A DNA stretch of 32,000 nt from Corynebacterium amycolatum (GCF_049243625.1 NZ_CP046975.1); one strand, 5' to 3'. Positions 1,888 through 32,000 are shown, counted from the first letter of the stretch. Notes: generated by a model not told the origin, from the sequence alone. Translations and numbers: made by a program.

Positions 1888-1892
1888 AAGCC

Positions 1893-4800: not shown

Positions 4801-7800
4801 TCTGCCCCGAAGAAAGGAGCGAGATTCTCGAGTGCTCAGTGTGCCAGCGTCGTCTTGCGGTCGATTCCCACGGACGTCAACTTCTTGACGGCGCACCGTG
4901 CATTTCCCTGGGATGTGAAGGGACGTTCGGTATCACCGAAAATCACGATAATTACTACCGTCGGCTCTACCATTCTCGAAACTCGCGAACCGTGGTGGCC
5001 AAGGAACACACTGGCCTTCTTGATTCTGCTGAGCGCGTCGCGCTGGAAAATGAATTCAAAAAGCCTGTAGATGAGCAAAACGCAGATGCTCCGAATATCC
5101 TCGTCGCTACCCCAACACTGGAAATGGGTATCGACATCGGCGACCTATCTACAGTGATGTTGGCTTCTTTGCCAGACACTGTTGCGTCGTACGTACAACG
5201 AGTTGGCCGCGCCGGGCGTCTCACTGGCAATTCCCTGGTGTTGGCCATGGTAGTCGGCCGCCAGAAAGCACTTGCTCGGCTGGCGAACCCAACCGAAACT
5301 ATTGGTGGCGAGGTTCAACCGCCGGCAGCGTTTCTTTCCGCACGCGAGATTCTTCATCGTCAATTTGCAGGTTATTTGATTGATTCGATTGACTTCACTC
5401 AAACTGAAGTAACACCTCGCTTTGCGAATTCAGTATTCGGTATCGGCGGCAAGAACCTGGTTTCTGAACTGGTCAAGCGGCTCGAGGCAGGAGTTGAGGA
5501 CCTAGTTGACGAATTTTCGTCCACGATTGAGGGGCTGACTCGCCAGAACGTTCTCGATGAACTTCGAGAATGGGTGCAGCAAGGCTTCGCCGATCAGCTG
5601 CGCAAGGCTGAAAAAGACTGGCGCGAGGCACGACAGGTACTTATCGGCCGCCGTAAAGTCCTCGAAGAGTTGCTTGACCAGCTTGAAAGAGAAGCTGAAA
5701 CAGCTATGGCTGATGATGAAATCAGGTCGAAGCTACGGAAGACACGCGCCGCTTACAAGTTCACTCGCGCTCAACTGCAGAACTCTTTTGACTCCGAGCA
5801 TTGGGTCTCCGCGCTAGAGCGGTTTGGTATCTTGCCAAACTTCACCTTGCTTGATGACTCTGTGGAATTCTCAGTCTCAATTTCCAGAACCGACGCAACG
5901 ACGGGTGAATTTGAAACTGAGGCACGCGAATACTCGCGTGGCATTTCCTCTGCCTTATTCGAACTTGCGCCCGGCGCGACGTTCTATGCCCAAGGCATTG
6001 CAGCCACTGTGGACTCAGTAGATCTTGGACCACAGAATTCGGCCTTAGAAAAGTGGCGAATCTGCCCGTCTTGCTCCTATTCGGAGATTTATCCAGGAGC
6101 AGGAGAGGTACCAAATAAGGGGCCATGCCCACAGTGTGGTGAAGCAAAGTTCGGCGATATTTCACAAGTTAAGAGTGTCGTCGAGATGCGCAAGGTTTCT
6201 GCATCAGTGGACTACTCGCGTTCAGCTATTACCGACCGGTTCGAGGATCGCCGTCCAACACGGTTTGAGCGAGTCCTATCAATGGTGATTCCAGATGGAG
6301 CGGTTGGCGAAGGCTGGTACCTGGCTGACACGGGCTTCGGTATTCAGTACCTCCCCACAGTAGAACTGCGCTGGCTGAATCTAGGTAAACCTGCTGGCGG
6401 TGCCCGTCAATACCTTGCCGGCACTGAAGTTGAAGCACCAATGTTCCGGGTATGTCGCGAGTGCGGACACATCGATTCTGAAGCAGGCGCTAACCGCTGG
6501 CAGGATCACAAACCCTGGTGTTCTCTGCGACACGCTCGAGACGAAGACACCATCGATTTCGCTCTGGGCCGTCGTTTACAGACACAGGGCGTTCTCATGC
6601 ACCTTCCCACCTCTGTATCAACGACAGACACTAACGCTATCCCGTCGCTAATTGCCTCGTTGAAGATGGGATTCAAGGAATATCTTGGTGGGAATCCTAA
6701 TCATCTCGATGTCACTTCAGTATTCACTGCATCAAACGGCAGCGTCCGCCAGATGCTGCTGCTCCACGACTCTATTCCTGGCGGAACAGGTTATCTTTCG
6801 CAATTCACTGATTCTGCTGACATTCATCGCTTATTGGTTAAGGCGTATAACAAGCTCCGCAACTGCGAGTGTGGCAAAACGTCGCTAAAGGCCTGCCCGC
6901 ATTGCTTGTTACCTTTCACACCGGCTCGTAATGTGGACGTCGTCTCACGGGAATCTGCCCTGGCGACCCTAATCAAAATCCTTCTCGATGACGCGCACCC
7001 AGAGGATCCTGACGCACACATTCCAGAAGACTCCTGGGACGGCCGTATCACAGAGAAGAAACCAGCTCAGTCCGAAAGGTCTGAGTTGGAAGCGATGTTC
7101 CTCGAGCAACTGCGCGCAGACTTGAAGTCTGCAGGTGCAGTGGTCAACGAATCGACCCGCGGACTTAACGCTCTGTGGACCATTCGGTTCCCCAACTCCA
7201 AACTCACGTGGAAAATGGAAGAGCAGAAGAAGCTCCCCGGTAACTTGGGTTCCATCACAACACCGGATTTTTACTTTGATGTAGATGGTGCAGATCTCGA
7301 CCGGATTGCTGTTTACGTCGACGGTGTGCAATTCCACGCGAGTATCACTCACAACCGTGTGGCAGATGATATTGCTCGTCGTAACGCGCTCTACGCTGAT
7401 GGCATCGTGCCGTGGTCTTTGACCATGAAGGACCTGAAAGCCCGCCAAGCCATAGTGAAAGGGAATACCCCCAACGCCCCTTCGTGGTTCGTTAATGATT
7501 TCCGTCAACCGATCAATGGGAAGCTAAACCTCGAGGACAGCTTGCACACCTTGCTGCTGGCAGACCCAATGACGCAGCTTCTGGCCATACTCCAAAACCC
7601 GAGAAAGCGGTGGGACATCCTTTCTAAAGCTGCTGGTTTGCACACGTTAGCGAAGGCATCGATGACCCCAGGTGCATTCGGGCCGCTGATTGAATGCGGC
7701 GCTAAGGGGACACAGCTCTTCCTCGATTTCCGTGTTGAGGACGGTACTCCAAATACAGAAACCTGGAATTGGTTCCTGAACTTGGCTAATTTGTTCTACC

Positions 7801-8246
7801 TCAACGCTTATGCGGCTGGCCGCAATGTCATTAACGTTGAAAATGTCTCTTCTAGTGCCACAACCACAACGCCGAGTGAGTCTGGCGTGACAGACGCGGT
7901 GCTCGAGACTTTCGGGGATGCCGAAGAGACAGATCACGACAAATCTGTAGTGGAAACAATAGCGGCGAACGGCATGTGGGCAGAGGCTATCGATGAATAT
8001 CGGGATGATGAGTCCGAGGTAGTTGCAGCACTACAGCTTATGGTGGCCGCACATGTCATCGAGCCTTCAGACATCGGTGGAGAGATTAACGGCATTCCTA
8101 CTGCGGTAAGTTGGCCAGATAAGCGTGTAGCCCTAGTTTTCCCCGGCGATGCACAGTCTTTTTCCGCCGCTGTTGCGGATGGCTGGACAATCATCGACTC
8201 CGACGGATTCACAACGTCTGCTATTCCTGAATCTCTTCTCTCGTAG
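1893..8246 (+). CDS. Giant (2117 aa) SF2 DEAH-box helicase fused to a DUF1998 (MrfA/DrmB-type) Cys-rich domain and a DUF559/Vsr-like endonuclease motif
   Basis: Uninterrupted 6.35-kb ORF with a GTG start 5 nt after the methyltransferase stop. Helicase motif I is GTGSGKT (2211..2231), motif II is DEFH (2604..2615), and motif V/VI is LVATPTLEMGIDIGDL...QRVGRAGR (motif VI at 5196..5219). Several CxxC clusters and an HDSIPGGTGYL motif are present. The nuclease-like core reads PDFYFDV...IAVYVDGVQFH. Confidence 0.85.
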   Translation: MSSLLPAYAAEHVLDGLSEYLTTSFSLAERNTAENLERFLKDPVNGMFHGPYIRTRLPYAPATQWEGLLEWLPEWFVPYRHQAEAFKRLSSLSDGIERRPEPTLVVTGTGSGKTESFLYPILDHCRRERLRGRSGGVKALILYPMNALANDQAARLASLISTEPELAGIRAGIYTGENQGDRMSVSEAGLITDRETMRQSPPDILLTNYKMLDQLLLRDADARIWQKSATTLQYVALDEFHTYDGAQGTDVALLLRRMGLCLKKHQPEGFLNEVEAARPLGKITPVATSATLGSGEKSTEEILHFAHTIFGEELPSDAIVRETTLDIPSWQNTIADFTGVTSTPTSMPSRDVVVAINDEIAHQSAEGTAEHDAIVHRVFCERVFRCNEDVDVAVAAASASELVVKILENTSAPIQLGNANSSSETLVEAVLDAEVHRLPDGGAAEFLSHALTEIAYLRAKFGELHGWNGKKFPGVETHLWVREVSRVDRRVGLGATDSLNDNDAMFRWSDNGIENSYNENYWLPACYCRNCGRSGWMTALAAGGESIEANGKKIRQQSIYNGSLMRPLLDATSEITSGHYRIEDESAGVFWLNVREEQLSTSEPSEEEKEQGGIVPVLTYSGETAEDLAKKQTCPSCGEINSIRYLGSSVATLLSVAISNLFGMGDLDDSEKKSLVFVDSVQDAAHRAGFVQSRARTFAIRTRTRQMVGDTPITLSELPSKLIDSTDQDSSPSRAKFELLPPWVAENQRFRGFWDPHAGKKDRKRATELLRDVLELDLALEFGDRSDLSRSLVSTGALSVGVDVSDAELVEVISELGMLREDSPASQTESLGARDVAWARGILEYMRQAGGIETKLLQSYLKHDGNAYLLNRREASARGIPKFPRGGAPSFPRIGKTLPTEKTDFSVNPLASARGAYARWTASMLKVSTNDAAHLVTSLFKTLADQAIVNAVTTDSGGTIYTLSPSRIVICPEERSEILECSVCQRRLAVDSHGRQLLDGAPCISLGCEGTFGITENHDNYYRRLYHSRNSRTVVAKEHTGLLDSAERVALENEFKKPVDEQNADAPNILVATPTLEMGIDIGDLSTVMLASLPDTVASYVQRVGRAGRLTGNSLVLAMVVGRQKALARLANPTETIGGEVQPPAAFLSAREILHRQFAGYLIDSIDFTQTEVTPRFANSVFGIGGKNLVSELVKRLEAGVEDLVDEFSSTIEGLTRQNVLDELREWVQQGFADQLRKAEKDWREARQVLIGRRKVLEELLDQLEREAETAMADDEIRSKLRKTRAAYKFTRAQLQNSFDSEHWVSALERFGILPNFTLLDDSVEFSVSISRTDATTGEFETEAREYSRGISSALFELAPGATFYAQGIAATVDSVDLGPQNSALEKWRICPSCSYSEIYPGAGEVPNKGPCPQCGEAKFGDISQVKSVVEMRKVSASVDYSRSAITDRFEDRRPTRFERVLSMVIPDGAVGEGWYLADTGFGIQYLPTVELRWLNLGKPAGGARQYLAGTEVEAPMFRVCRECGHIDSEAGANRWQDHKPWCSLRHARDEDTIDFALGRRLQTQGVLMHLPTSVSTTDTNAIPSLIASLKMGFKEYLGGNPNHLDVTSVFTASNGSVRQMLLLHDSIPGGTGYLSQFTDSADIHRLLVKAYNKLRNCECGKTSLKACPHCLLPFTPARNVDVVSRESALATLIKILLDDAHPEDPDAHIPEDSWDGRITEKKPAQSERSELEAMFLEQLRADLKSAGAVVNESTRGLNALWTIRFPNSKLTWKMEEQKKLPGNLGSITTPDFYFDVDGADLDRIAVYVDGVQFHASITHNRVADDIARRNALYADGIVPWSLTMKDLKARQAIVKGNTPNAPSWFVNDFRQPINGKLNLEDSLHTLLLADPMTQLLAILQNPRKRWDILSKAAGLHTLAKASMTPGAFGPLIECGAKGTQLFLDFRVEDGTPNTETWNWFLNLANLFYLNAYAAGRNVINVENVSSSATTTTPSESGVTDAVLETFGDAEETDHDKSVVETIAANGMWAEAIDEYRDDESEVVAALQLMVAAHVIEPSDIGGEINGIPTAVSWPDKRVALVFPGDAQSFSAAVADGWTIIDSDGFTTSAIPESLLS
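2115..2883 (+). other. RecA1 lobe of the DEAH helicase (motifs Q/I/Ia/II/III)
   Basis: YRHQAEAF precedes Walker A TGTGSGKTE. PMNALANDQ is a motif Ia-like element. LTNYKMLD and DEFHTYDGAQG (motif II) follow, then ATSATLG (motif III-like SAT). Confidence 0.75.
2885..4950 (+). other. Insertion of about 690 aa between the two helicase lobes, carrying Cys clusters
   Basis: There are no helicase motifs between motif III and the HTGLL...LVATPTLEMGIDIG block. The segment contains CYCRNC (3468..3485) and CPSC (3792..3803). It also contains CSVC-x18-CISLGC (4833..4916), which lies immediately before the RecA2 lobe. Confidence 0.6.
4953..5343 (+). other. RecA2 (helicase C-terminal) lobe
   Basis: The sequence reads VAKEHTGLLDSAERVALENEFKK...NILVATPTLEMGIDIGDLSTVMLASLPDTVASYVQRVGRAGR. 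This is the classical SF2 motif IV-VI pattern. Confidence 0.8.
5797..6935 (+). other. DUF1998-like (MrfA/DrmB/DruE-type) zinc-binding region
   Basis: ERFGILPNFTLLDD resembles the hydrophobic LPxY/F-xF motif. A CPSC-x17-CPQC ribbon lies at 6063..6137, followed by CRECGH...C...H at 6453..6533. LLLHDSIPGGTGYLSQF is a GG-x-G-Y signature. The terminal cluster is CEC-x7-CPHC at 6864..6905. Confidence 0.65.
7075..7445 (+). other. DUF559/Vsr-like (restriction-endonuclease-fold) motif region
   Basis: The sequence reads SELEAMFLEQL...TPDFYFDVDGADLDRIAVYVDGVQFHASITHNRVADDIARRNALYADGIVPWSL. It fits the D-F...hhhE/V-x-DG-x-x-H...D..R...L...G pattern of DUF559/Vsr-type endonuclease domains. Confidence 0.5.
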
Positions 8247-8269
8247 CTAGTACAGAAAGGTCTCAATAA

Positions 8270-10615
8270 ATGTCCGCCAACGTTTTCTTTGCAAGCGATT
8301 TCAAGACCATTAAGGGCTTCGAAAAGCAAACGATGCAGTTCATAGAGAAGCTGCGGGAGGATCCAGCAAACCCTTCTCTGAAAGTCAAGCCACTGAAGAA
8401 CGCCGTGGATTCTCGCGTGCGGACGGCGAGAGTCACAGACCAGTACAGAGCTGTGCTGATTGAGCTCGAAGGATCCAAACAGCGTCATTTTCTTCTGATG
8501 AAGATTGACAACCACGATGAGGCCAACGATTATGCGGCCAGACTTCGTATTCGCAGTAATCCTGTCAATGGTGTTCTTGATTTTGTCGTCGAAGAAACCG
8601 AAGACAATGAAGCCGATGTCGCGGCCGAAATCGAATCACGTGCTCAGCAGCTAGCAGCAGAAAAGCTGGCGAAGCTCCAGGCAGAACAGGAGGCTGCAGC
8701 CGCCCACGATGAATCCGAAAGCTCGGAGGATAGTGAGGCGGAGGCACCTGCATCGCGAACGGAGACGCAACAGGGTGAGACAACGACCGTCGTTACGCCA
8801 GCCGTTCCCCCGCGTAAGACACTGATGGACGCGGGGATTGACCAAGAAGCGTTGGAGACTCAGCTTGGAATCTCCAAGGTTTCCATCGGTGCGACGTGGC
8901 GGGCCGAATCTGAGGATGACCTCGAATCTCTGCTGGCTAAGAGCGCTGATTGGGAGAAGGATGCCATCGTCGGCCTGATTGCGGGAATGACCATTGCTGA
9001 GGTCAAGGAAGACCTCGGTCTGGCCCCCGCCTCTCCCACCGACGAAGCCGAGCTCGGCGGTGACGAGATTGTTACTCAGCTCAAGGAAAAGGGACTTGTG
9101 TTTGAGGCTTCCGAAGAGGAGCTTCAGGAGATTTGGGAGAAGGGCTCCTTCCAAGAGTGGCGAGTATTCCTGCACCACTCCCAGCGAAAGGCAGCCTTTG
9201 GCGATCACAAGGGTTCCGCTCGCGTCGTGGGCGGCGCGGGTACTGGCAAGACGGTTGTGCTTGTTCACCGCGCGAAGTACCTGCTGGAGAAGTACCCCAA
9301 CTCGAGCATCCTGCTGACTACGTTTACGCGAGGTCTCGCAAACCAGTTGAAGACCCTGATGAGCACGCTCGATCCGTCCTTCCCGGGAGCTTCCTCCCAC
9401 GGTGCTCCGGGACTGTGGATTTCGGGTATCGACGCACTTGTCCGCCGGGTATTGGACAATGCCCAGACCACAGAACTTGAAGCAGCTATGGAATCTGCTT
9501 TGGGAATCCACGGTTCTTTCGTCCCTCGTCCCTTGGGCGATTACCAAGAGGATCAGATGTGGCAGGAAGCCGCTGAGCTCCACGGCGAAGGCATGCATCC
9601 CTCTAAGCTCCAGGCGGAATTCCTCCGCGGCGAGCTCGTCGATGTCATCCTCACCTCATCCATCAGCACCGAAAAGGAGTACCTGCGCGTTTCCCGTCAG
9701 GGACGCGGTACCTCGCTCAACCGCGCCGAACGCAAGAAGGTGTGGGCTATCTGCCGCTCGTTCCTGCGTTCCTGCGAGCTTGAAGAGCAGCTCCCCTTCC
9801 CCGCCCTCGCCGTCGTCGGTGCCGAAGCGCTCGAGCACCGCGGCGTCCCAATGTTCGAGCATGCGCTTATCGACGAAGCCCAGGACTTCCATGCAGGACA
9901 TTGGCGTTTCCTTCGGGCTGCGGTAGCCAAGGGGGCAGATGACATCTTCATCGCAGAGGACTCTCACCAGCGAATCTATGGTCGCCGTATCATCTTGCGA
10001 AACTACGGCATTGAAACCCGCGGTGGTGCAACCAAACGACTCCGCGTCAACTACCGAACCACCGCGCAGAACCTCTCCTACGCAACCTCGATTCTGGAGG
10101 GTGCAGAATGGATCGACTCAGAAGCTGAAAACGATACGCTCGTCGGTTACCGGTCGCTTGCCAACGGCCCGGCACCGATCATCGCGCACGCAGCCAACAA
10201 GCATGAAGAGTTCGACATCATCGCCACTACGGTCAAACAGTGGCTCAACTCTAATTCCCCATCGATGCACGTAGGGATTCTTACCCGAACTAACCGACAG
10301 TCTGATGAGCTAAAGACCTTCCTCGGCGAGAGAGGCATCTCGGTCTCCGGAGATCGCTCCGGTGCTGTCACATTGAAGAACGAGGTATCGGTGATGACCA
10401 TGCACAACGCAAAGGGCATGGAATTTACCAACGTCATTCTCGCGGATGTTTCCTCGGACAATATGCCCAAAATCTTCGGCTTCAATGCACTTGCGGAGTC
10501 TGAACAAAACGATGCACTTCAGCGTGAGCGGGCGCTACTCTACGTTGCGGCCTCGCGTGCTCGTGACCAGCTCGTCATCACGATGGTTGGTGCGCCTTCG
10601 GAGTTGTTGCCTTGA
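8270..10615 (+). CDS. UvrD/Rep-like SF1 DNA helicase with a RelE/ParE-like N-terminal module and an acidic linker
   Basis: ATG start with a GAAAGG Shine-Dalgarno about 10 nt upstream, 23 nt after the previous stop. Walker A is GGAGTGKT (9230..9253) and Walker B is LIDEAQDF (9866..9889). Further SF1 motifs are RVNYRTT, MTMHNAKGMEF and LLYVAASRARDQLVIT (motif VI). The N-terminal roughly 95 aa read FKTIKGFEKQTMQFIEKLREDPANPSL...RTARVTDQYRAVLIELEGSKQRHFLLMKIDNHDEANDYA. Confidence 0.85.
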   Translation: MSANVFFASDFKTIKGFEKQTMQFIEKLREDPANPSLKVKPLKNAVDSRVRTARVTDQYRAVLIELEGSKQRHFLLMKIDNHDEANDYAARLRIRSNPVNGVLDFVVEETEDNEADVAAEIESRAQQLAAEKLAKLQAEQEAAAAHDESESSEDSEAEAPASRTETQQGETTTVVTPAVPPRKTLMDAGIDQEALETQLGISKVSIGATWRAESEDDLESLLAKSADWEKDAIVGLIAGMTIAEVKEDLGLAPASPTDEAELGGDEIVTQLKEKGLVFEASEEELQEIWEKGSFQEWRVFLHHSQRKAAFGDHKGSARVVGGAGTGKTVVLVHRAKYLLEKYPNSSILLTTFTRGLANQLKTLMSTLDPSFPGASSHGAPGLWISGIDALVRRVLDNAQTTELEAAMESALGIHGSFVPRPLGDYQEDQMWQEAAELHGEGMHPSKLQAEFLRGELVDVILTSSISTEKEYLRVSRQGRGTSLNRAERKKVWAICRSFLRSCELEEQLPFPALAVVGAEALEHRGVPMFEHALIDEAQDFHAGHWRFLRAAVAKGADDIFIAEDSHQRIYGRRIILRNYGIETRGGATKRLRVNYRTTAQNLSYATSILEGAEWIDSEAENDTLVGYRSLANGPAPIIAHAANKHEEFDIIATTVKQWLNSNSPSMHVGILTRTNRQSDELKTFLGERGISVSGDRSGAVTLKNEVSVMTMHNAKGMEFTNVILADVSSDNMPKIFGFNALAESEQNDALQRERALLYVAASRARDQLVITMVGAPSELLP

Positions 10616-11091
10616 AGTGTCAACTGAAATGCAATTGTAAGTCCATAACACGCCTAAACTCCGCCTATAAGAACGATTTAGGCCCCCGCGACCACAACTG
10701 AGCGCTGGTGGACAATCCGTTCGGGTTCTAAACAAGGAAGAGCTGCCAAAAACGAACGAACTGATTCACTACGATTCGCCGAAGTGTTCAACCATATTCG
10801 CCGTTAACGAAACCCCATACGGCTTATTGCCCCAACTTAACCGGGCCGATAACTGGAGCCAAACTATAACGGAATGTGCCAGTGCATAATAGATAATGCG
10901 CACGCTTTTTCGCCACTGCCCTACTTATATTAGTCAACATAAGGAGGCTAATTTCCGAAGAAAAGAAAATGTTACCTTAAAAGGTGTCAGCACTATCCTG
11001 ATACTAACGCACTTATCAACGGTACAATCGACTATAAAACGATTCGAAACTCATGAATCAAAAAAATCTAATATACACTTTTACTCCAGCT

Positions 11092-12993
11092 CTACAAGTT
11101 GAAGGCCTTTCGAATAATAGCGTACACATCTGTAAAAATGTCTAGATCATTGTCTGCAGTTTTGATTAAGTTTTGCTGAAACGAAAATATCTCGTCTGAA
11201 CTCGGCTTAACTCCATCAGGCAATTGGTAGGAATCTCTAACATGCTCACGCCATGCTTCCTTCCAAAGAGAGCCATCATTAAGGCCCCCACCTCGTTCCG
11301 CAACATAGTTTGAAACCGGTTCCAGCGACGGGATACTGTCAGCAACTAACTGTTCAGGGACTCCACCAGGGAGAAACTGCAAATACTCCTTAGCCCAAAG
11401 TGCGCAAGCCCTCCGGCTATCTTCCAAAGTAGAATCATTACTGTTCTTAGGAATCGAAGGGCAACCAGGTCTAAAAATGTAATTTTTCCAAAACGCCTCC
11501 CAGGAGGCATCCGCTCCTAGCTCAGTCTTCAATTCCTTATCAAACGCCGCGAGATTGCGATCAGCAAAACCGGGCGGTCTACCATCTCCGTCAATCAAAA
11601 TAAGGATGTTATCCACACCGGCTAAGGCGTGCGAGGCAGTATTATGATTAACTAGGTCATTCTCTCCACCCGGAAACACCACAACATCAATCGTCTCTAA
11701 CATAATCCTATTCACTTTTCGAATCGCGGTTTCGACGATTAGCTGACTAAGCCGATCCTCTACCAGAACAGTGTAACCTGACTGCGCCCGCAAATCCCCT
11801 ACCCTAAGGAACGCCTCATTTGGCGAACATTTATTCGCTACGAGGTGCACCTTACGATCTTCATTACTAAATGCAAGAACTTTAATAGCTTGCGGCGGAA
11901 GTTCAGCTACGAATGCAGGCGAGTGCGTAGCAATCGCCATTTGGTGCCCATACTTCAAACACTGCCGTACTAGAAAGTCCATCAAACGAGATTGAGCACC
12001 GGGATGCAACGAAGTTTCCGGCTCATCAAAAATAATTAATGAACCAGGCGGGGCTGACAGTACGCTATCTACAATTCGCGCAACGGCAAACTCACCAGCA
12101 CCAGCATGCGCCTCAGAGAATGAACCAGATGAATCTTCGAGAATAAATCTTATTGTAAAACCACGGGTATAAAAGAACCTATGTTCAATGATAGCAATAT
12201 CTGAAAGTGGCTTTCCAATGATTTTGCGGCACTCCTCGACGGCTTCAGCTTCAAAGTACCGAACGGGTTCATGCACTCTTCCAGCAAGAAATTTTGGCAG
12301 ACGATCGCCACGCTCCATTGCCTCAGCCAAGTCTTCAGATTTTTGTACGATTTTATAGCGCTTATCAGTTCTCGAATTTACATCCCTACTTAAAGGCATA
12401 TGATAAAGATATTTATCAAAAGCGCTAATTTCAGAACGAAAATCCATGTAGATTACATTTTTCTCAATCGGGTTCCAGCGATCTCTCTTTTTCGAAATAT
12501 GCTCATCGAACCCTTTCCTTGGAAGAGCTCTCATTCCATCTTTTTGAACACGTTTTGTCGGCTCCCAATAGTCAGGGTCCTTTTTGCCTTCCAGTCGCTT
12601 AGGCAGAGCTTTTGTCTTCCTGTAATTTCTGCTTACACGAGCTTTCCTGCATTCTGCCTCTACACCAGAGTTATCGAATCGATATGTGTAGATGAATCGC
12701 TGAATCTCGTTGGAATTTGCTCCACGAAAATTTTCATTAATATCATCAACTGCAGTTGAAAACCAAAAGTCAGAAACACTCTTTCCAGCTGGCGCGCCGT
12801 ACAGTGCTTGTAAAATCGAGCTCTTATTTGAACCGTTTGCCCCAACCAGCGCTGTAATTGGCCAGTCAAAATCAAGTTCTAAGCCTTTTGCTAACGTCTT
12901 ATAACATGGAAATCTCATCGACGTAATAAAATTATTGAACTTTTTCCAGTTCGTGAATGCGTTAGTCAACTTCAGAACATTATCTACACTCAT
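11092..12993 (-). CDS. ABC/AAA_15-21-type ATPase fused to a Toprim/OLD-like (DUF4435-like) C-terminal domain
   Basis: Walker A is GANGSNKSS (12817..12843). SEAHAGAGEF is an ABC-signature-like element. Walker B/D-loop is LIIFDEPETSLHP (DE at 12022..12027) and the H-loop is IATHSP. The C-terminal half has YTVLVEDRLSQ (Toprim-like Glu, about 11758) and ILILIDGDG (DxD, 11584..11592). A GGGAG Shine-Dalgarno lies 8 nt upstream of the ATG, and the gene starts 14 nt downstream of the methyltransferase stop. Confidence 0.75.
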   Translation of the reverse strand: MSVDNVLKLTNAFTNWKKFNNFITSMRFPCYKTLAKGLELDFDWPITALVGANGSNKSSILQALYGAPAGKSVSDFWFSTAVDDINENFRGANSNEIQRFIYTYRFDNSGVEAECRKARVSRNYRKTKALPKRLEGKKDPDYWEPTKRVQKDGMRALPRKGFDEHISKKRDRWNPIEKNVIYMDFRSEISAFDKYLYHMPLSRDVNSRTDKRYKIVQKSEDLAEAMERGDRLPKFLAGRVHEPVRYFEAEAVEECRKIIGKPLSDIAIIEHRFFYTRGFTIRFILEDSSGSFSEAHAGAGEFAVARIVDSVLSAPPGSLIIFDEPETSLHPGAQSRLMDFLVRQCLKYGHQMAIATHSPAFVAELPPQAIKVLAFSNEDRKVHLVANKCSPNEAFLRVGDLRAQSGYTVLVEDRLSQLIVETAIRKVNRIMLETIDVVVFPGGENDLVNHNTASHALAGVDNILILIDGDGRPPGFADRNLAAFDKELKTELGADASWEAFWKNYIFRPGCPSIPKNSNDSTLEDSRRACALWAKEYLQFLPGGVPEQLVADSIPSLEPVSNYVAERGGGLNDGSLWKEAWREHVRDSYQLPDGVKPSSDEIFSFQQNLIKTADNDLDIFTDVYAIIRKAFNL

Positions 12994-13007
12994 TATAAAC
13001 TCCCAGA

Positions 13008-14081
13008 CTAAAACTGTTCTAGAATGGTATCTGCGATAGCCGAAGCTAAATCCACTGGTACCGCATTACCGATTTGCTTTGCAATTGCGGTTTTCGATCC
13101 ACACCACAGGTAACTGTCGCTGAAGCCTTGAAGCCTCGCAGCTTCGTGGTGCGTGATTGGCCGATCAGCTACGGGATGCAAGTACCGTCCTTTTTCTGGC
13201 TTAAAGAACTCAGTCCGGATCGTCACCGATGGCCTATCATAAAACAACCGTCCCATTACATCAGAGGAGCCTGAATTATGACTCTTCCAACACTTTGGTA
13301 GATACTCCTCTGGGATTGAAAACCTATTTCCGCCAGGGCCGATATAGCTTATTCGGCGTTTGGTAAGTTCAGTTAAGTTTCTCGTTAGATGTAGTTCTTC
13401 CGATTTGAATGGCCCCGGTATCTTTTTATTCCCTTTCCAAAACCGACCTGAAGGCAACTCCCTTCTGTCTACTTGAACCTGGATACCGGCAGTCGATTCC
13501 CTAAATGTCTTATATCTCGATATCTTTGCATCCTTCAGGCGTTCCGTATTCGGCTTCTTCACATCTTTTCTCCAACCGATTACTATCGCCCTTTTTCGAC
13601 TTTGTGCCACTCCAAAATTAGCAGCATCCAAAATCATTGAATCGAAAGCATAATCCCTTAATAACCCTTCTGCGTTCAATACATATACAAATTCTTGGTA
13701 TTGACTACTTTTCAGAAAAGACGCCACATTCTCGAGCACAAAGTACTTAGGTTTTGTTATGTGAATAAATTCTACATATTTTTCCCATAGGCTGTTTCGC
13801 GGATCATCTGCTTTACGCTTTCCTAATGTCGAAAAGCCCTGACATGGAGGCCCTCCAACCACAATGTCTGCTTCGATATGTCGTTTTTCTTCGAGCCAGC
13901 TTTCAATCTTCCCATTATAAACATTGGCATTAGGATGGTTAGCTTTAAAAGTGGCTGCCGCGGCTACATCAGATTCAATTGCCAGTAAGACATCGATGTC
14001 CTTCTGGCTTCTTAAGAATCCGGCTGAAAATCCACCCGCTCCTGAAAAAATATCTATAAGTGTAATTCTTCTTTTATTCAA
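13008..14081 (-). CDS. dcm: DNA (cytosine-5)-methyltransferase
   Basis: All canonical C5-methyltransferase motifs are present: I DIFSGAGGFSAGF, IV GGPPCQGFS (catalytic Cys codon at 13842..13844), VI FVLENV, VIII QSRKR, IX RPITHHEAARLQGFSDSY and X GNAVP. The start is a TTG only 15 nt downstream of the mctB-like stop, so the start is uncertain. Confidence 0.9.
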   Translation of the reverse strand: MNKRRITLIDIFSGAGGFSAGFLRSQKDIDVLLAIESDVAAAATFKANHPNANVYNGKIESWLEEKRHIEADIVVGGPPCQGFSTLGKRKADDPRNSLWEKYVEFIHITKPKYFVLENVASFLKSSQYQEFVYVLNAEGLLRDYAFDSMILDAANFGVAQSRKRAIVIGWRKDVKKPNTERLKDAKISRYKTFRESTAGIQVQVDRRELPSGRFWKGNKKIPGPFKSEELHLTRNLTELTKRRISYIGPGGNRFSIPEEYLPKCWKSHNSGSSDVMGRLFYDRPSVTIRTEFFKPEKGRYLHPVADRPITHHEAARLQGFSDSYLWCGSKTAIAKQIGNAVPVDLASAIADTILEQF

Positions 14082-14096
14082 TCTATTCTTCTCTTT

Positions 14097-15005
14097 TTAC
14101 TGTTTTATCCATCTGACAACGCCTACCTGCCCTGCCGCATCAGACACAGCGTCCACACGCTTCACGGCGGGGTCGGCGCCCCAGCGGTCATCAGGCAGAG
14201 CACTGACGCCTTCACGGCCGAAGCCATCAGTCCCCACCACCACGTGACCAGCAGCATCGTCACCAGCACCAAAGCCCTCAGCAAGAGCCACAGCCAGATC
14301 CGCAACCAGGCCAGCACCGAACTCCGGGTCCTCGCCTTTATCAATCGCAGCCTTTGACACAGTGCCGTGATTACCAACAATCACAATGCCAGCAGCCGGG
14401 CGCAGAGTCCCCTCCTCATACTCAACAAAGCCGCCGCCCTTCAACGCCTCCAGCAGTAGCTTTCGGTCCGCAGCGGAAGCCCGCTCTCCCCCATCCTTAT
14501 CCAGTTCCGACACAGGAGCCAGCGCCTGGCCAGCCTGGCGGCCCGGCTCGCGGCGCTCCGGGTCCAGCTGCACATCAGCTGGCAGTGAGGTAGCGACCGT
14601 GTCCTTCAGCTCATCCGCGCCAGCGGCAGAGAGGAACTTATCGGCTAGCTTCAGCACGCCCGCATCCGGGGCACCAGCAGCGCGCAGGGTCTCGGAAACC
14701 CCTGCCAGCTGCTCATCGGTGGCATCGGGAGTCGCGATAACAAGGACGGGTACGTCCTTCAAAGAGTCCTTGACAATCTCCCCGACGATGGGCTCGATGA
14801 TGCGGTTGGCTTCATCGGCACGCGCTTGCTGCGCATCGGCACGAGCGACAGCGGCATCGCGCTCAGAGGCGGCACCAGTGCCGAAATCAATGCCAGCACC
14901 AGCAGGGTTCAGCACGTAGGCACCCAGTGCAGCACCTGCCGCCACACCGAGGGCAGCACCTGTCACACCGGCTGTAAACTTCCCGCTCCTGCGCTTCTTC
15001 CCCAT
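14097..15005 (-). CDS. MctB-family copper transporter-like membrane protein (SteB-like)
   Basis: An N-terminal basic stretch is followed by one TM helix (FTAGVTGAALGVAAGAALGAYVL) and an Ala/Asp-rich extracytoplasmic domain. Its position directly after steA matches the Mycobacteriales tlyA-nadK-recN-steA-mctB block (Rv1694-Rv1698). Confidence 0.7.
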   Translation of the reverse strand: MGKKRRSGKFTAGVTGAALGVAAGAALGAYVLNPAGAGIDFGTGAASERDAAVARADAQQARADEANRIIEPIVGEIVKDSLKDVPVLVIATPDATDEQLAGVSETLRAAGAPDAGVLKLADKFLSAAGADELKDTVATSLPADVQLDPERREPGRQAGQALAPVSELDKDGGERASAADRKLLLEALKGGGFVEYEEGTLRPAAGIVIVGNHGTVSKAAIDKGEDPEFGAGLVADLAVALAEGFGAGDDAAGHVVVGTDGFGREGVSALPDDRWGADPAVKRVDAVSDAAGQVGVVRWIKQ

Positions 15006-15095
15006 CGCCCGTCCCTCATTCCTTTCGCCGGCGCCTCAATCAGCTCTGACAGCTGAAAACTTCAGGCGCTCACAATGCTCAAGATACCGCTAAAA

Positions 15096-16280
15096 CTACT
15101 TAAACAGCCCCTGGAACCACAGTGCGATGGAGTTCCAGGTATCAATCAGATTCTCGCTGACAGAACCATCACCGGAGGTACCAGCGATAGCGAAGATCAC
15201 CGCAACGGCAACAAAGATAGCCAGGATTGCCCAGGCCACACCGAAACCGCGGCTATTGACCTGGTAGAGGTCGGCGACCATGCGACCGTCGACAAGCTTC
15301 TCCCCGACCTTCAACCGCGACAGCAGCGCCGACGGCACACCCCGTTGATCCTCGTCGTGGTAAATGCTGTCGATGTTCTGCGGCGCACCGACGGAGACGA
15401 CCATGTCGGCCTCGTGATGCGCGGCGAAGACCAGCGCCAGGTCAGTAGCGGAATCGGACAGCGCCGGGAAGGTCATGGCGCCAATGCCGAGGTCCTGAAT
15501 GCGCTCGAGGCCCACCGCGTGACCGTCCGGATCAGCGGGCAGAATCACGCATCCGGCAGACCGCAGCGCCTCAGAGTTGATGTTCTCCGGATCGCCAATG
15601 ATGTAGTCCGGTTCGTACTTCAGGTCGAAGAGCGTGTCGGCGCCTGCATCGACGCCGATGAGCAGCGGCTCGTACTCGCGGATGAAGTTCTTCAGATCTT
15701 CCAGCGTCTTGCGGTGTCCCTCGCCAGGGCTGACCACAACGACCTTGCGGCCACGCAGCGGCTCTGTCTCGTCCGGAATGCCCAGGCCGTCGATGTAGAG
15801 CGGGGATTCGGTCTTGGCGAACTCCACCAAGTTGCCAGAGAGCGCCTCCAGGCGGTCGACCATACTGGTGCGACCCTCGTCGAAGGCGCGCTCCAGCTCA
15901 TCCTGGTCGACCTCGTCGCCCTGTCCAATTAGGCGGTCACCGTGGTAGAGCTTGCCGTCGTGAAGCCTTGCGTTTTTACCGTCCTTGAGCTTGGCAAAGA
16001 CCTCGTCGCCGACGTTCTGCACCATCTCGATGTCGGCGTCGCGCATCATCTGCGGGCCGTAATTCGGCACAAAACCCGTGGTAAACGCGCCAGTGTTCAC
16101 CACTGCGGCGACCTTGGCATCAATCAACTGCTGTGCCAGTGGACGCGAGATATCCGGTGCATCGATCACCACGATGTCGCCTTCGCCCATACGCTTCAGC
16201 GCACGATCCAGGCGGGAACCATCCCGCACGGTCCCCGAAATGCCAGGAAGATCTTTTTCGTTCCGAGAGAACAGACTCAT
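15096..16280 (-). CDS. steA: Putative cytokinetic ring protein SteA (thiamine pyrophosphokinase-like domain plus C-terminal TM helix)
   Basis: The N-terminus reads MSLFSRNEKDLPGISGTVRDGSRLDRALKRMGEGDIVVIDAPDISRPLAQQLIDAKVAAVVN. A C-terminal hydrophobic helix (FGVAWAILAIFVAVAVIFAIA) is present. Synteny after recN supports the call. Confidence 0.8.
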   Translation of the reverse strand: MSLFSRNEKDLPGISGTVRDGSRLDRALKRMGEGDIVVIDAPDISRPLAQQLIDAKVAAVVNTGAFTTGFVPNYGPQMMRDADIEMVQNVGDEVFAKLKDGKNARLHDGKLYHGDRLIGQGDEVDQDELERAFDEGRTSMVDRLEALSGNLVEFAKTESPLYIDGLGIPDETEPLRGRKVVVVSPGEGHRKTLEDLKNFIREYEPLLIGVDAGADTLFDLKYEPDYIIGDPENINSEALRSAGCVILPADPDGHAVGLERIQDLGIGAMTFPALSDSATDLALVFAAHHEADMVVSVGAPQNIDSIYHDEDQRGVPSALLSRLKVGEKLVDGRMVADLYQVNSRGFGVAWAILAIFVAVAVIFAIAGTSGDGSVSENLIDTWNSIALWFQGLFK

Positions 16281-28225: not shown

Positions 28226-28342
28226 TGCCGGCGGCGACCTACTCTCCCACACCCTCCCGAGTGCAGTACCATCGGCGCTGGTGGACTTAGCTTCCGGGTT
28301 CGGAATGGGACCGGGCGTGACCCCACCGCTAACACCACCGAC
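28226..28342 (-). rRNA. rrf: 5S rRNA
   Basis: The reverse complement reads GTCGGTGGTGTTAGCGGTGGGGTCACGCCCGGTCCCATTCCGAACCCGGAAGCTAAGTCCACCAGCGCCGATGGTACTGCACTCGGGAGGGTGTGGGAGAGTAGGTCGCCGCCGGCA. This is a canonical actinobacterial 5S sequence. The ends are accurate to about 3 nt. Confidence 0.93.
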
Positions 28343-28449
28343 AAAAACCAGGCAACAACCAACCCCACCACAAAACTTCGGGTGGGTGGTGTCATGCCAG
28401 ACACTGAACAGTAGACGCGAGCAAAAACCCTAATTTTTCACACTCTCTT

Positions 28450-32000
<3,551 letters not shown>

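What the first reader, a model, noticed from the sequence alone, without database searches (positions are those of the whole stretch)
11092..14081. AT-rich two-gene cassette: complete Dcm-type methyltransferase coupled to an ABC-ATPase/Toprim (OLD, PARIS or Gabija-like) protein and no recognisable classical restriction enzyme
The methyltransferase has all ten-motif hallmarks (FSGAGG, PPCQ, ENV, QSRKR, GNAVP). It is followed 14 nt later, with a GGGAG Shine-Dalgarno, by a 633-aa protein. That protein has an ABC-type ATPase head (GANGSNKSS, FDEPETSLHP, ATHSP). Its tail has a Toprim-like Glu (VLVEDR) and a DxD (IDGDG). This layout matches OLD-family nucleases, GajA and fused AriA-AriB, none of which are normally methyltransferase-linked. 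The pairing suggests either a restriction-modification system whose nuclease is an ATP-driven OLD-like enzyme, or an abortive-infection ATPase-nuclease hitch-hiking with an orphan methyltransferase. Its composition is far below host GC, so transfer is probably recent and from a low-GC donor.
Basis: partly seen in the sequence, partly recalled or inferred. Interest (0 to 1): 0.75.

Follow-up and report, generated by a model that had tools for sequence, protein, structure and literature searches.

The report
Cytosine methylase paired with OLD-type nuclease
A foreign two-gene cassette in a Corynebacterium chromosome joins a DNA cytosine methylase to an ATP-driven nuclease of the OLD family; this pairing recurs in over a hundred unrelated bacteria with no ordinary restriction enzyme present, so it is probably an undescribed kind of restriction-modification defence.

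Summary
On the minus strand, a complete C5 DNA methyltransferase (14081..13008) is followed 14 nt later, after a GGGAG, by a 633-aa protein (12993..11092). Both genes are 43-44% GC in a 61-63% GC Corynebacterium chromosome.

The 633-aa protein has an ABC-ATPase head, a divergent Toprim nuclease domain and a family-specific helical tail. Its AlphaFold model (pLDDT 93) matches Thermus OLD, GajA and the retron-Eco8 effector best. All catalytic residues are invariant across the family.

The pairing is the norm for this protein family. In 80 genome loci, 70 have a C5 methyltransferase within 6 kb and 48 have one directly adjacent on the same strand. In 53 non-redundant IMG/VR loci, 51 have one within 2.5 kb. 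Distant ABC-ATPase relatives have none. The genes flanking the pair are unrelated, often housekeeping.

I conclude it is an autonomous, mobile methylase-nuclease module. It is most likely an ATP-dependent restriction-modification system with a Toprim nuclease. A PrrC/PARIS-like guard role is the main rival. It is not Gabija, PARIS, Druantia or HEC-04 proper. I found no description of it, but could not query REBASE.

The parts
13008..14081 (-). C5 DNA cytosine methyltransferase gene (357 aa, TTG start, TAG stop). The start lies 15 nt after the stop of the host mctB-like gene.
   Evidence: ORF; PF00145 E 2.6e-58, TIGR00675; motifs I, IV, VI, VIII and X located; best solved relatives are M.HaeIII, DNMT1 and M.HhaI; 43.3% GC.
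12994..13007 (-). 14-nt intergenic junction TCTGGGAGTTTATA, with a GGGAG Shine-Dalgarno 6 nt before the ATG of the nuclease gene.
   Evidence: Read directly from the sequence. In 35 of 44 adjacent homologous pairs the junction is 30 nt or less, and 12 overlap (approximate starts).
11092..12993 (-). OLD-family ABC-ATPase/Toprim nuclease gene (633 aa including the family-specific tail; stop codon at 11092-11094).
   Evidence: ORF; Pfam/PADLOC; AlphaFold pLDDT 93.3; Foldseek top hits OLD 6p74, GajA and retron-Eco8 effector; 100% identical to HMPREF3122_08470 of Corynebacterium sp. HMSC11H10.
11809..12993 (-). ABC-ATPase head, aa 1-395. It carries Walker A (aa 51-58, nt 12820-12843), signature AGAGE (297-301), Walker B DEPE (323-326) and H357. 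Two inserts are present: a beta-rich insert at aa 71-185 with the invariant DPDYWEP motif, and a helical insert at aa 186-290.
   Evidence: AAA_21 residues 46-362; invariant columns; secondary structure; the insert has no PADLOC match.
11569..11784 (-). Toprim core, aa 404-475: strand 407-411 ending in E412-D413 (E412 codon nt 11758-11760), PGG 441-443, and strand 463-467 followed by D468-G-D470 (nt 11584-11592).
   Evidence: Invariant residues. Matches only the HEC-04 and retron I-B ATPase-Toprim PADLOC profiles. The domain model's top PDB hits are the Toprim regions of Xcc OLD 6njv (probability 0.98), AriB, GajA and Bp OLD 6nk8.
11095..11568 (-). Family-specific all-helical C-terminal tail, aa 476-633. 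It is the most variable region (20-24% mean identity) but contains near-invariant E547 and invariant K578.
   Evidence: no Pfam or PADLOC match.
10616..11091 (.). AT-rich (43% GC) non-coding spacer at the 3' end of the cassette, separating it from the convergent UvrD-like gene. It has the cassette's composition.
   Evidence: No protein similarity to the ORFs of the related loci. No Rfam family or tRNA.

Best explanation
The two genes form one autonomous, horizontally mobile module: a C5 cytosine methyltransferase plus an OLD-family nuclease (ABC-ATPase head, Toprim nuclease domain, helical tail).

Most likely mechanism (inferred, not shown). The module is an ATP-dependent restriction-modification system. 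The methyltransferase marks the host's own DNA. The ATPase-Toprim protein, probably a dimer or higher oligomer like other OLD proteins, uses ATP binding or hydrolysis to engage DNA and nicks or cleaves DNA that lacks the mark.

The same nuclease family is paired with very different C5 methyltransferases, and no part of it co-varies with the methyltransferase's target-recognition domain. I therefore think it does not read the sequence itself. Instead it is licensed through the methyltransferase, or through methylation status at the methyltransferase's sites, much as Res depends on Mod in Type III systems.

Shown here: the gene structure, the foreign composition, the fold and catalytic residues, and the near-obligate linkage as a self-contained pair.

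Inferred: nuclease activity on DNA, protection by 5mC, and dependence on the methyltransferase for targeting.
For: 1. Fold and active sites. The AlphaFold model has pLDDT 93.3 and pTM 0.89. The best whole-chain PDB matches are Thermus OLD 6p74 (E 1e-11), GajA and the retron-Eco8 effector. Walker A, signature, Walker B, H-loop, E412, D468 and D470 are invariant in every context.
2. Link to a validated relative. E412/D468/D470 align, at a constant offset of +93, with E319/D375/D377 of the HEC-04 profile. If profile positions equal residue numbers in the tested protein, these are the residues whose mutation abolished phage defence (paper 10.1101/2024.01.29.577857).
3. Linkage in genomes. 70/80 loci have a C5 methyltransferase within 6 kb, and 48 have one directly adjacent on the same strand. 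Both gene orders occur. Of 75 methyltransferase ORFs in these loci, 73 lie within 2.5 kb of the ATPase gene.
4. Independent replication in IMG/VR. 51/53 non-redundant loci have a methyltransferase within 2.5 kb and 48 are adjacent. Distant ABC-ATPase relatives in the same scan have none.
5. Operon structure. Junctions are 30 nt or less in 35/44 pairs, and 12 overlap.
6. Self-contained module. Among 120 genes flanking the block, no family recurs more than 3 times, and many are housekeeping genes. In most loci this protein is the only nuclease candidate.
7. Modular position. The window's methyltransferase clade elsewhere pairs with GHKL+DUF4420+Z1 restriction-type modules. In Nocardia both modules sit in one operon behind the methyltransferase. 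The ATPase-Toprim gene thus occupies the position of a restriction component.
8. Co-acquisition. The two window genes share 43-44% GC and GC3 of about 40%. They stay intact in strains where the neighbouring DruE-like helicase is split.
Against: 1. About 5-7 loci have an intact ATPase-Toprim gene but no C5 methyltransferase nearby. Examples are Gordonia L022, where a GmrSD-like gene sits upstream, and Promicromonospora L082, with none within 10 kb. An unprotected restriction nuclease should be lethal unless a methyltransferase lies elsewhere in the genome.
2. In roughly 20 loci another candidate nuclease shares the operon: R.HpaII (7 loci), paraMORC-HEPN (9 loci) and EcoRII-C (2 loci). There the protein looks like an add-on rather than the sole nuclease.
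3. The nearest validated relative, HEC-04, defends as a single gene without a methyltransferase.
4. No ATPase region co-varies specifically with the methyltransferase target-recognition domain (rho 0.14-0.42; the C-terminal tail is lowest). A self-contained sequence reader is therefore not supported.
5. Recent work reports PARIS AriB and P2 Old as tRNases (abstracts). DNA is thus not the guaranteed substrate.
6. No biochemical or genetic data exist for this family.
Confidence: 0.5

Rival explanations
1. Guard or abortive-infection module (PrrC/PARIS-like). The ATPase-Toprim nuclease, possibly a tRNase, is held inactive by binding the C5 methyltransferase. It is released when a phage interferes with methylation or restriction, for example with a DNA mimic or a SAM-degrading enzyme, and then kills or arrests the cell. 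Methylation itself is not what protects the host from this nuclease.
For: OLD-family relatives act as guards or abortive effectors: PARIS is triggered by Ocr, and P2 Old senses RecBCD status. HEC-04 works alone and is toxic when induced. In about 20 loci the gene is appended to systems that already carry another nuclease, such as R.HpaII, EcoRII-C or paraMORC-Ymh HEPN; the last was itself proposed to be a PrrC analogue (PMC3710099). The strongly conserved beta-rich insert would fit a conserved protein partner such as the methyltransferase catalytic domain. Some family members lack a methyltransferase.
Against: In most loci the pair stands alone among unrelated genes, with no restriction enzyme to guard. 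A guard with nothing to guard needs the extra assumption that the methyltransferase is purely a sensor. Convergent gene arrangements (8/53 viral-contig loci) are typical of restriction-modification pairs and not of obligate complexes. The Pfam (AAA_21 46-362) and AriA-named PADLOC (46-362) matches stop at the ATPase, and no AriB or DUF4435 model is among the matches reported for the Toprim-tail fragment.
Confidence: 0.28
2. An independent single-gene defence nuclease (HEC-04-like) that merely sits beside an orphan methyltransferase, both carried on the same mobile DNA (hitch-hiking).
For: The best PADLOC profile is HEC-04, a validated stand-alone system. Defence genes do cluster. Family members without a methyltransferase exist.
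Against: Linkage is about 88-96% in two independent collections, mostly immediate and same-strand with short or overlapping junctions. Distant relatives show none. The HEC-04 profile covers only residues 232-472 of 633; the inserts and tail are unrelated to it.
Confidence: 0.08
3. A genome-maintenance accessory of C5 methyltransferases, comparable to Vsr. An ABC-ATPase/nuclease would process lesions that C5 methyltransferases create, such as covalent enzyme-DNA adducts or deamination mismatches.
For: The linkage seen is to C5 methyltransferases, the class that forms covalent intermediates; other methyltransferase classes were not systematically searched. Vsr is a precedent for a C5-specific repair partner. 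ABC-ATPase nucleases such as SbcCD/Rad50-Mre11 process protein-blocked DNA (established knowledge).
Against: All characterised close relatives are defence or abortive nucleases. Vsr co-occurs in 10 loci instead of being replaced. The module is mobile, patchily distributed and compositionally foreign, which is typical of defence genes and not of repair genes.
Confidence: 0.07
4. The pair is part of a larger multi-gene system with its left neighbours: Druantia-type (DruM + DruE-like helicase) or Gabija-type (OLD nuclease + UvrD-like helicase).
For: The methyltransferase's best PADLOC profile is DruM2 (E 4e-98), and the 2117-aa neighbour matches DruE profiles. The UvrD-like neighbour matches GajB profiles. 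Gordonia L022 repeats the arrangement ATPase -> <- UvrD-like <- DruE-like.
Against: The neighbours lie on the opposite strand, 476 bp away, with a different composition (50-57% versus 43-44% GC). No DruF or DruG profile is among the reported matches. GajA profiles match only residues about 312-390. Only 3 of 120 flanking genes in related loci are UvrD-like. The DruE-like gene is split in some strains while the pair stays intact. Homologous pairs occur without these neighbours.
Confidence: 0.05

Closest known systems
OLD-family nucleases, Class 1 (P2 Old, Thermus scotoductus OLD, PDB 6p74)
   Same: The architecture is the same: an N-terminal ABC ATPase with inserted domains and a C-terminal Toprim with a catalytic Glu and DxD. 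6p74 is the best whole-chain structural match (E 1e-11) and the best PDB sequence match.
   Different: Sequence similarity is confined to the ATPase C-lobe, and no Pfam OLD-Toprim match was found. This family has a different beta-rich insert with a DPDYWEP motif and a 160-aa helical tail. Class 1 is defined as stand-alone genes (PMC10568477), whereas this family is almost always next to a C5 methyltransferase.
HEC-04 (Hma-embedded candidate 04; Payne et al. 2024 preprint)
   Same: It is the best PADLOC profile (E 1.2e-31). It is an ABC ATPase fused to Toprim. The aligned residues appear equivalent to the Walker A and E/DxD residues shown to be required for defence. Like HEC-04, this gene is found embedded among helicase and methylase defence genes.
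   Different: The profile covers only residues 232-472 of 633; the N-terminal half, inserts and tail do not match. HEC-04 is shorter (494-position model) and works as a single gene. This family is methyltransferase-linked.
Gabija GajA/GajB (Class 2 OLD) and PARIS AriA/AriB (Class 4 OLD)
   Same: They share the ABC-ATPase plus Toprim logic. GajA is a sequence-specific DNA nicking enzyme regulated by nucleotides (abstract of PMC8136825). GajA and AriB appear among the structural hits.
   Different: The family has no conserved UvrD partner and no AriB/DUF4435 match. The profiles match only about 70 residues of the ATPase. Neither system includes a methyltransferase.
NTP-dependent Type II systems with C5 methyltransferases (CglI/NgoAVII: M + R + N proteins) and Mza/Z1-DUF4420-GHKL modules
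   Same: A C5 methyltransferase is coupled to an NTPase-dependent restriction machine (my recollection of Zaremba et al. 2014 for CglI/NgoAVII; not checked here). The window's methyltransferase clade pairs with Z1/DUF4420/GHKL modules in other actinobacteria, and both module types co-occur in Nocardia.
   Different: The folds are entirely different: those systems use a PLD or PD-(D/E)XK nuclease with a helicase-like or GHKL ATPase, whereas here one polypeptide combines an ABC ATPase with a Toprim nuclease.
Type III restriction-modification (Mod + Res)
   Same: The proposed logic is the same: a two-gene system in which an ATP-dependent nuclease subunit relies on the methyltransferase for target recognition.
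   Different: Res is an SF2 helicase with a PD-(D/E)XK nuclease, and Mod is an N6/N4 methyltransferase. This is a functional analogy only, and it is untested here.
PrrC-EcoprrI (ABC-ATPase anticodon nuclease embedded in a Type I system)
   Same: An ABC-ATPase-nuclease fusion is genetically embedded in a restriction-modification locus. It is the paradigm for the rival guard explanation.
   Different: PrrC carries a HEPN RNase and sits within a complete Type I system. Here the nuclease domain is Toprim, and most loci contain only the methyltransferase.

Membership tests
OLD-family nucleases (ABC ATPase + Toprim) | N-terminal ABC-type ATPase with Walker A, signature motif, Walker B/D-loop and H-loop | tested here: met
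   AAA_21 E 2.8e-20, AAA_15 and SMC_N. K57, AGxGE 297-301, DEPE 323-326 and H357 are invariant.
OLD-family nucleases (ABC ATPase + Toprim) | C-terminal Toprim domain with a catalytic Glu and a DxD motif | tested here: met
   E412 and D468xD470 are invariant. The strand-helix-strand-helix-strand topology is present. The domain-only model's top hits are OLD, AriB and GajA Toprim regions, but the scores are weak (best E 3.4e-3, probability 0.98, TM 0.36-0.44).
OLD-family nucleases (ABC ATPase + Toprim) | Whole-chain structural similarity to a solved OLD protein | tested here: met
   Foldseek: 6p74 E 9.6e-12, GajA 8u7i E 4e-11, retron-Eco8 effector 9lp9 E 5e-11. Global TM is low (0.34-0.38), consistent with different domain orientations.
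OLD-family nucleases (ABC ATPase + Toprim) | Match to curated OLD or Toprim sequence models (Pfam OLD-type Toprim, PADLOC Old, NCBIfam) | tested here: not met
   Pfam returns only ATPase families. PADLOC Old matches residues 318-364 only. No NCBIfam hit reaches its cut-off. By sequence this is a separate family.
OLD-family nucleases (ABC ATPase + Toprim) | ATPase and metal-dependent nuclease activity | not testable with these tools
   Needs purified protein.
Gabija (GajA + GajB) | Co-directional adjacent UvrD-like GajB partner | tested here: not met
   The window's UvrD-like gene is convergent, 476 bp away, and 56.7% versus 44% GC. Only 3/120 flanking genes in related loci are UvrD-like.
Gabija (GajA + GajB) | Full-length match to GajA profiles | tested here: not met
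   GajA models match about residues 312-390 only, E 4e-12 to 1e-10.
PARIS (AriA + AriB) | AriB-type DUF4435 Toprim effector, separate or fused | tested here: not met
   No DUF4435 or AriB hit in Pfam or PADLOC for the whole protein or for the C-terminal fragment. The 'AriA' PADLOC hit spans the same residues (46-362) and profile length as Pfam AAA_21 and stops at the ATPase.
HEC-04 | Full-length match to the HEC-04 profile | tested here: inconclusive
   Best profile (E 1.2e-31), but it covers only residues 232-472 against model positions 147-379 of 494. The insert and tail are unmatched. A related family, not the same one.
HEC-04 | Single-gene system that functions without a methyltransferase | tested here: not met
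   This family is linked to a C5 methyltransferase in 70/80 and 51/53 loci.
Restriction-modification system (any type) | Active DNA methyltransferase gene | tested here: met
   All catalytic motifs are present and the Pfam match is full-length. In vivo activity was not tested.
Restriction-modification system (any type) | Cognate nuclease gene conserved next to the methyltransferase | tested here: met
Restriction-modification system (any type) | Nuclease blocked by the cognate methylation, and methyltransferase required for viability | not testable with these tools
   Needs cloning, toxicity and restriction assays. Loci that lack a methyltransferase are a caution.
Classical Type II restriction enzyme | ATP-independent nuclease of a known restriction fold (PD-(D/E)XK, HNH, GIY-YIG, PLD, half-pipe) | tested here: not met
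   The nuclease domain is Toprim and is fused to an ATPase with invariant catalytic residues. No PADLOC REase model is among the reported matches.
Druantia type II (DruM-DruF-DruG-DruE) | Co-directional operon with DruF and DruG between DruM and DruE | tested here: not met
   DruM2 and DruE profiles match, but the genes are on opposite strands with different GC. No DruF or DruG profile is among the reported matches. The DruE-like gene is split in strains where the pair is intact.
Catalogued REBASE system with a characterised nuclease | Match to a REBASE entry | not testable with these tools
   REBASE is not available here. Seven literature searches found no description. The 2025 restriction-modification review PMC12707154 does not mention Toprim.

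The most novel reading that the evidence does not exclude
This is the founding example of a fifth, methyltransferase-linked class of OLD-family nucleases. It would also be a new kind of ATP-dependent restriction-modification system, in which Toprim serves as the catalytic fold of the restriction component. The C5 methyltransferase would be an exchangeable specificity and licensing subunit, giving Type III-like logic built from unrelated parts.
Probability: 0.35. Interest if true: 0.8.

Novelty: new variant of a known kind. Interest (0 to 1): 0.62.

Why it matters
Restriction enzymes characterised so far, as far as I know, use five catalytic folds, and OLD-family nucleases are currently sorted into stand-alone, Gabija, retron and PARIS classes. 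If this module works as proposed, three things follow.

First, Toprim would be added to the restriction folds, and a methylation-coupled class would be added to the OLD family.

Second, it would link the oldest known defence logic (modification-based self/non-self discrimination) to a nuclease family otherwise known from abortive or guard-type immunity.

Third, it would give a simple two-gene system for asking how an ABC ATPase licenses a Toprim nuclease. That question is still open for P2 Old and other Class 1 OLD proteins.

There are practical consequences too. The module occurs in Corynebacterium amycolatum-group skin and clinical isolates, Bifidobacterium and many environmental bacteria, and it would be a barrier to transformation and phage therapy. 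Current tools would report it, at most, as an orphan methyltransferase plus a partial HEC-04-like hit. The family comprises about 600 clusters at 50% identity.

Tried and rejected
1. Gabija, PARIS and Druantia readings. I tested these with PADLOC and Pfam profiles and with neighbour analysis, and rejected them.
2. Search for a specificity-matched domain. I compared region-by-region identity of the ATPase with the methyltransferase target-recognition domain across 63 pairs, with partial correlations. No region stood out. This argues against a built-in sequence reader, but the test is crude.
3. Search for a hidden third gene. The 476-bp 3' spacer gave no blastx hit to any ORF of about 170 related loci, no Rfam family and no tRNA. 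Flanking genes of homologous loci share no recurrent family.
4. Promoter and terminator scan of 10500-15200. Counts were near shuffled expectation (9 promoter-like sites against 5.9 expected; 5 terminator-like against 5.2), and nothing lies between the host mctB-like gene and the methyltransferase. Repeats in 10400-14400 are only short chance-level matches, with no flanking direct repeats.
5. Plasmid and phage GenBank collections. There was one weak plasmid hit (23.5% identity) and no phage hit. IMG/VR contigs, many of them from isolate genomes, do carry the family.
6. Literature. Seven searches and several papers were read. No description of a C5-methyltransferase-linked OLD or Toprim nuclease was found. 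The Krishnan et al. 2020 ABC-ATPase classification is not held and could not be checked. The 'Mza' search returned noise.
7. Complex prediction. The available tool folds single chains only, so a methyltransferase-nuclease complex could not be modelled.
8. Methyltransferase specificity. It could not be inferred; the solved relatives match only the catalytic core.

Full report
**1. The observation**

The window carries two minus-strand ORFs exactly where the finding says. One is a 357-aa ORF at 14081..13008 with a TTG start. The other is a 633-aa ORF at 12993..11092 with an ATG start. Between them lie 14 nt, TCTGGGAGTTTATA, containing GGGAG.

The first ORF is a complete C5 DNA methyltransferase. 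It matches PF00145 at E 2.6e-58 over residues 7-354 and TIGR00675 at E 1.2e-49. The motifs are FSGAGG at 12, PPCQ at 78, ENV at 117, QSRKR at 160 and GNAVP at 338.

The second ORF matches AAA_21 (E 2.8e-20, residues 46-362) and AAA_15.

Both genes are 43-44% GC with GC3 of about 40%. The host genes immediately to the right (mctB-like, steA-like, recN) are 61-63% GC, and the defence genes to the left are 50-57%. The methyltransferase start lies 15 nt after the stop of the host mctB-like gene. No promoter- or terminator-like site lies between them.

The proteins are 100% identical to entries from Corynebacterium sp. HMSC11H10 and C. amycolatum. The same insertion at the same site, with an identical ATPase protein, was found in 23 contigs of this lineage.

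**2. What the 633-aa protein is**

Alignments of 18 and 81 homologues show these residues as invariant:
- Walker A: G51, N53, G54, N56, K57
- ABC signature: A297, G298, G300, E301
- Walker B / D-loop: D323, E324, P325, E326
- H-loop: H357
- Toprim: E412, D413, G442, G443, D468, D470
- Tail: K578

All of them are also conserved in the 80 genome loci, whatever the genomic context.

The AlphaFold model built on the 81-sequence alignment is very confident (pLDDT 93.3, pTM 0.89). Its best PDB matches are full-length OLD-family proteins: Thermus scotoductus OLD 6p74 (E 9.6e-12), GajA (8u7i, 8x5i) and the retron-Eco8 effector (9lp9). PtuA and the SMC/Rad50 heads follow.

A separate model of residues 390-633 has pLDDT 91. 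Its top hits are the Toprim regions of Xanthomonas OLD 6njv (E 3.4e-3, probability 0.98), AriB, GajA and Burkholderia OLD 6nk8. The scores are weak (TM 0.36-0.44).

So the tail is a genuine but divergent OLD-type Toprim, followed by a helical extension of about 160 aa that has no match anywhere.

By sequence, the Toprim segment matches only two PADLOC profiles: HEC-04 and the retron I-B ATPase-Toprim. E412/D468/D470 sit at a constant offset of +93 from HEC-04 model positions 319/375/377. Those numbers equal the residues mutated (E319A, D375A, D377A) to abolish HEC-04 defence in Payne et al. (10.1101/2024.01.29.577857). The equivalence assumes that model positions equal protein numbering.

Pfam OLD-type Toprim models, PADLOC Old and GajA models, and all NCBIfam models either fail to match or match only the ATPase C-lobe. 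The family is distinct. A full-length profile finds 607 clusters at 50% identity with E <= 1e-30 among 1.84 billion representatives.

**3. The key result: the pairing is the family's norm**

*Genome collection.* I fetched 80 loci encoding relatives (31-43% identity) from one-genome-per-species contigs. They span Actinomycetota, Pseudomonadota, Bacteroidota, Bacillota, Acidobacteriota, Nitrospirota, Planctomycetota, Myxococcota, Cyanobacteria and Lentisphaerae.
- 70 loci have a C5-methyltransferase ORF within 6 kb.
- 48 have one directly adjacent on the same strand: 29 downstream, 13 upstream and 6 with overlapping ORF segments.
- 16 more have one on the same strand 0.3-2.2 kb away, in 15 of them upstream with one or two genes between.
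- Of 75 methyltransferase ORFs in these loci, 73 lie within 2.5 kb of the ATPase gene.
- Of the 10 loci without a hit, three or four are cut by contig ends. In Nocardia canadensis the methyltransferase opens a seven-gene operon that ends with the ATPase gene.

*Independent replication.* In IMG/VR contigs, 51 of 53 non-redundant loci have a C5 methyltransferase within 2.5 kb. In 48 it is adjacent: 40 on the same strand and 8 convergent.

*Negative control.* More distant ABC-ATPase matches from the same IMG/VR scan (L156-L168, excluding family member L159) have no methyltransferase.

*Junctions.* With approximate start codons, the junction is 30 nt or less in 35 of 44 adjacent pairs and overlaps in 12.

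*Partner diversity.* The partner methyltransferases are diverse. Median identity is about 36% in the catalytic core and about 33% in the target-recognition domain. Their similarity correlates only moderately with that of the ATPases (Spearman 0.39).

*Flanking genes.* Among 120 genes flanking the methyltransferase/ATPase block, no Pfam family recurs more than three times, and many are housekeeping genes such as methylmalonyl-CoA mutase, peptidases and aminotransferases. In most loci the pair is therefore a self-contained insertion, and this protein is the only candidate nuclease.

**4. Variations on the theme**

- Seven Bacteroidota loci read M - R.HpaII - ATPase.
- Nine loci read M - paraMORC(GHKL)-Ymh(HEPN) - ATPase.
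- Ten loci carry Vsr, and two carry EcoRII-C.
- The closest relatives of the window protein (39-45% identity, actinobacteria) occur in two contexts. One is M -> ATPase with overlapping stop and start (L081). The other is the end of Z1/DUF4420/GHKL (Mza-like) clusters.
- The window's methyltransferase clade (50-53% identity) pairs elsewhere with GHKL+DUF4420+Z1 plus Vsr, or with large helicases.

The ATPase-Toprim gene thus behaves as an exchangeable effector module attached to C5 methyltransferases.

A few intact members have no C5 methyltransferase nearby. In Gordonia L022 the gene is preceded by a GmrSD-like gene and faces the same UvrD-like and DruE-like neighbours as in the window. In Promicromonospora L082 there is none within 10 kb.

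**5. Mechanism**

Shown here:
- a foreign, co-acquired gene pair;
- an OLD-type ATPase-Toprim protein with intact catalytic residues;
- near-obligate, operon-like linkage to C5 methyltransferases;
- self-containment of the pair.

Inferred. The simplest reading of an autonomous unit made of a DNA methyltransferase and a nuclease is restriction-modification. Methylation protects the host, and the ATP-dependent nuclease attacks unmarked DNA.

One conserved nuclease family serves many different methyltransferases, and no region of it co-varies specifically with the target-recognition domain. I therefore favour targeting or licensing through the methyltransferase (Type III-like logic) over an intrinsic sequence reader. 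The highly conserved beta-rich insert (DPDYWEP and neighbouring residues; 43% mean identity, higher than the Toprim domain) is a candidate interface. That suggestion is speculative.

The main rival is a PrrC/PARIS-type guard. It is supported by four points: the behaviour of characterised OLD relatives, HEC-04 working alone, the loci that already carry another nuclease, and the members that lack a methyltransferase. It explains the many stand-alone pairs poorly.

I rate the explanations as follows:
- restriction-modification 0.50
- guard 0.28
- hitch-hiking 0.08
- repair accessory 0.07
- part of the neighbouring Druantia- or Gabija-like genes 0.05

**6. Comparison with known systems and novelty**

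The protein meets the structural definition of an OLD-family nuclease but fails the sequence models. It fits none of the four context classes listed in the 2023 review (stand-alone, Gabija, retron, PARIS; PMC10568477).

Gabija, PARIS, Druantia II and HEC-04 membership tests fail or are partial; details are in the membership table.

Functionally, the nearest restriction-modification analogues are the NTP-dependent C5-methyltransferase systems (CglI/NgoAVII, Z1/Mza-type) and Type III systems. Both are built from unrelated folds.

Seven literature searches found no description of a C5-methyltransferase-linked Toprim/OLD nuclease. A 2025 review of restriction-modification biology does not mention Toprim. 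I could not consult REBASE or Krishnan et al. 2020, so prior recognition by curators cannot be excluded.

I classify the finding as a new variant of a known kind.

**7. Verdict**

The pairing is a conserved, widespread module and not a local curiosity. Interest is 0.62.

Noticed in passing
window 1-10615 (+ strand): A second, compositionally distinct (50-57% GC) defence block converges on the cassette. It holds the C-terminal 604 aa of an MmeI/Type IIG-like methyltransferase-nuclease (1519 aa in full), a 2117-aa DruE-like DEAD/MZB helicase (1893-8246) and a 781-aa UvrD-like helicase (8270-10615). I did not identify it as any named system. The DruE-like gene is split into two ORFs in some strains (L085, L087).
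   Followed up: partly
L022 (Gordonia sp. DT218) 1-13728: The same convergent neighbours as in the window appear here: a UvrD-like gene (E 2e-91 to the window's) and a DruE-like gene (E 8e-135). They face a 34%-identical ATPase-Toprim gene. A GmrSD_N (Type IV-like) gene sits upstream where the C5 methyltransferase would be. The repeated co-location with this helicase pair is unexplained.
   Followed up: partly
window 14082-14099: The foreign methyltransferase gene starts (TTG) only 15 nt after the stop of the host mctB-like gene, with an abrupt drop in GC. No promoter- or terminator-like site lies between them, so the cassette may be transcribed by read-through from the host gene.
   Followed up: partly
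window 12556-12576 (aa 139-145) and the surrounding insert aa 71-185: The beta-rich insert in the ATPase head carries invariant residues (W77, E114, K117, R119, DPDYWEP 139-145, R172). It is more conserved (43% mean identity) than the Toprim domain (34%). It matches no Pfam or PADLOC model, and its function is unknown.
   Followed up: partly
L038, L050, L053, L058, L060, L075, L077 (Bacteroidota): These operons read C5 methyltransferase - R.HpaII (PF09561, E 1e-132) - ATPase-Toprim, sometimes with Vsr upstream. A complete classical HpaII-type system thus carries the OLD-type gene appended at its end.
   Followed up: partly
L010, L036, L040, L044, L062, L065, L072, L076: A 550-aa paraMORC (HATPase_c_3) fused to a Ymh/HEPN domain sits beside the ATPase-Toprim gene and next to the methyltransferase, usually between the two. 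Two different ATPase-nuclease fusions therefore share one methyltransferase.
   Followed up: no
L169, L170, L171: The closest relatives of the window's methyltransferase (50-53% identity) pair with GHKL+DUF4420+Z1 modules (L169 and L171; Vsr also in L169), or with a 1552-aa SACS/DEAD helicase plus a UvrD-like helicase (L170), in place of the ATPase-Toprim gene.
   Followed up: partly
L063 (Aliivibrio logei) 5953-8968: The ATPase-Toprim gene appears interrupted. It is split into two ORF pieces about 1.1 kb apart, with small ORFs between them. The methyltransferase lies just beyond on the opposite strand.
   Followed up: no
window 28226-32000 (- strand): A ribosomal RNA operon: 5S (28226-28342), 23S (28450-31539) and the 3' end of 16S (31926-32000).
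   Followed up: no
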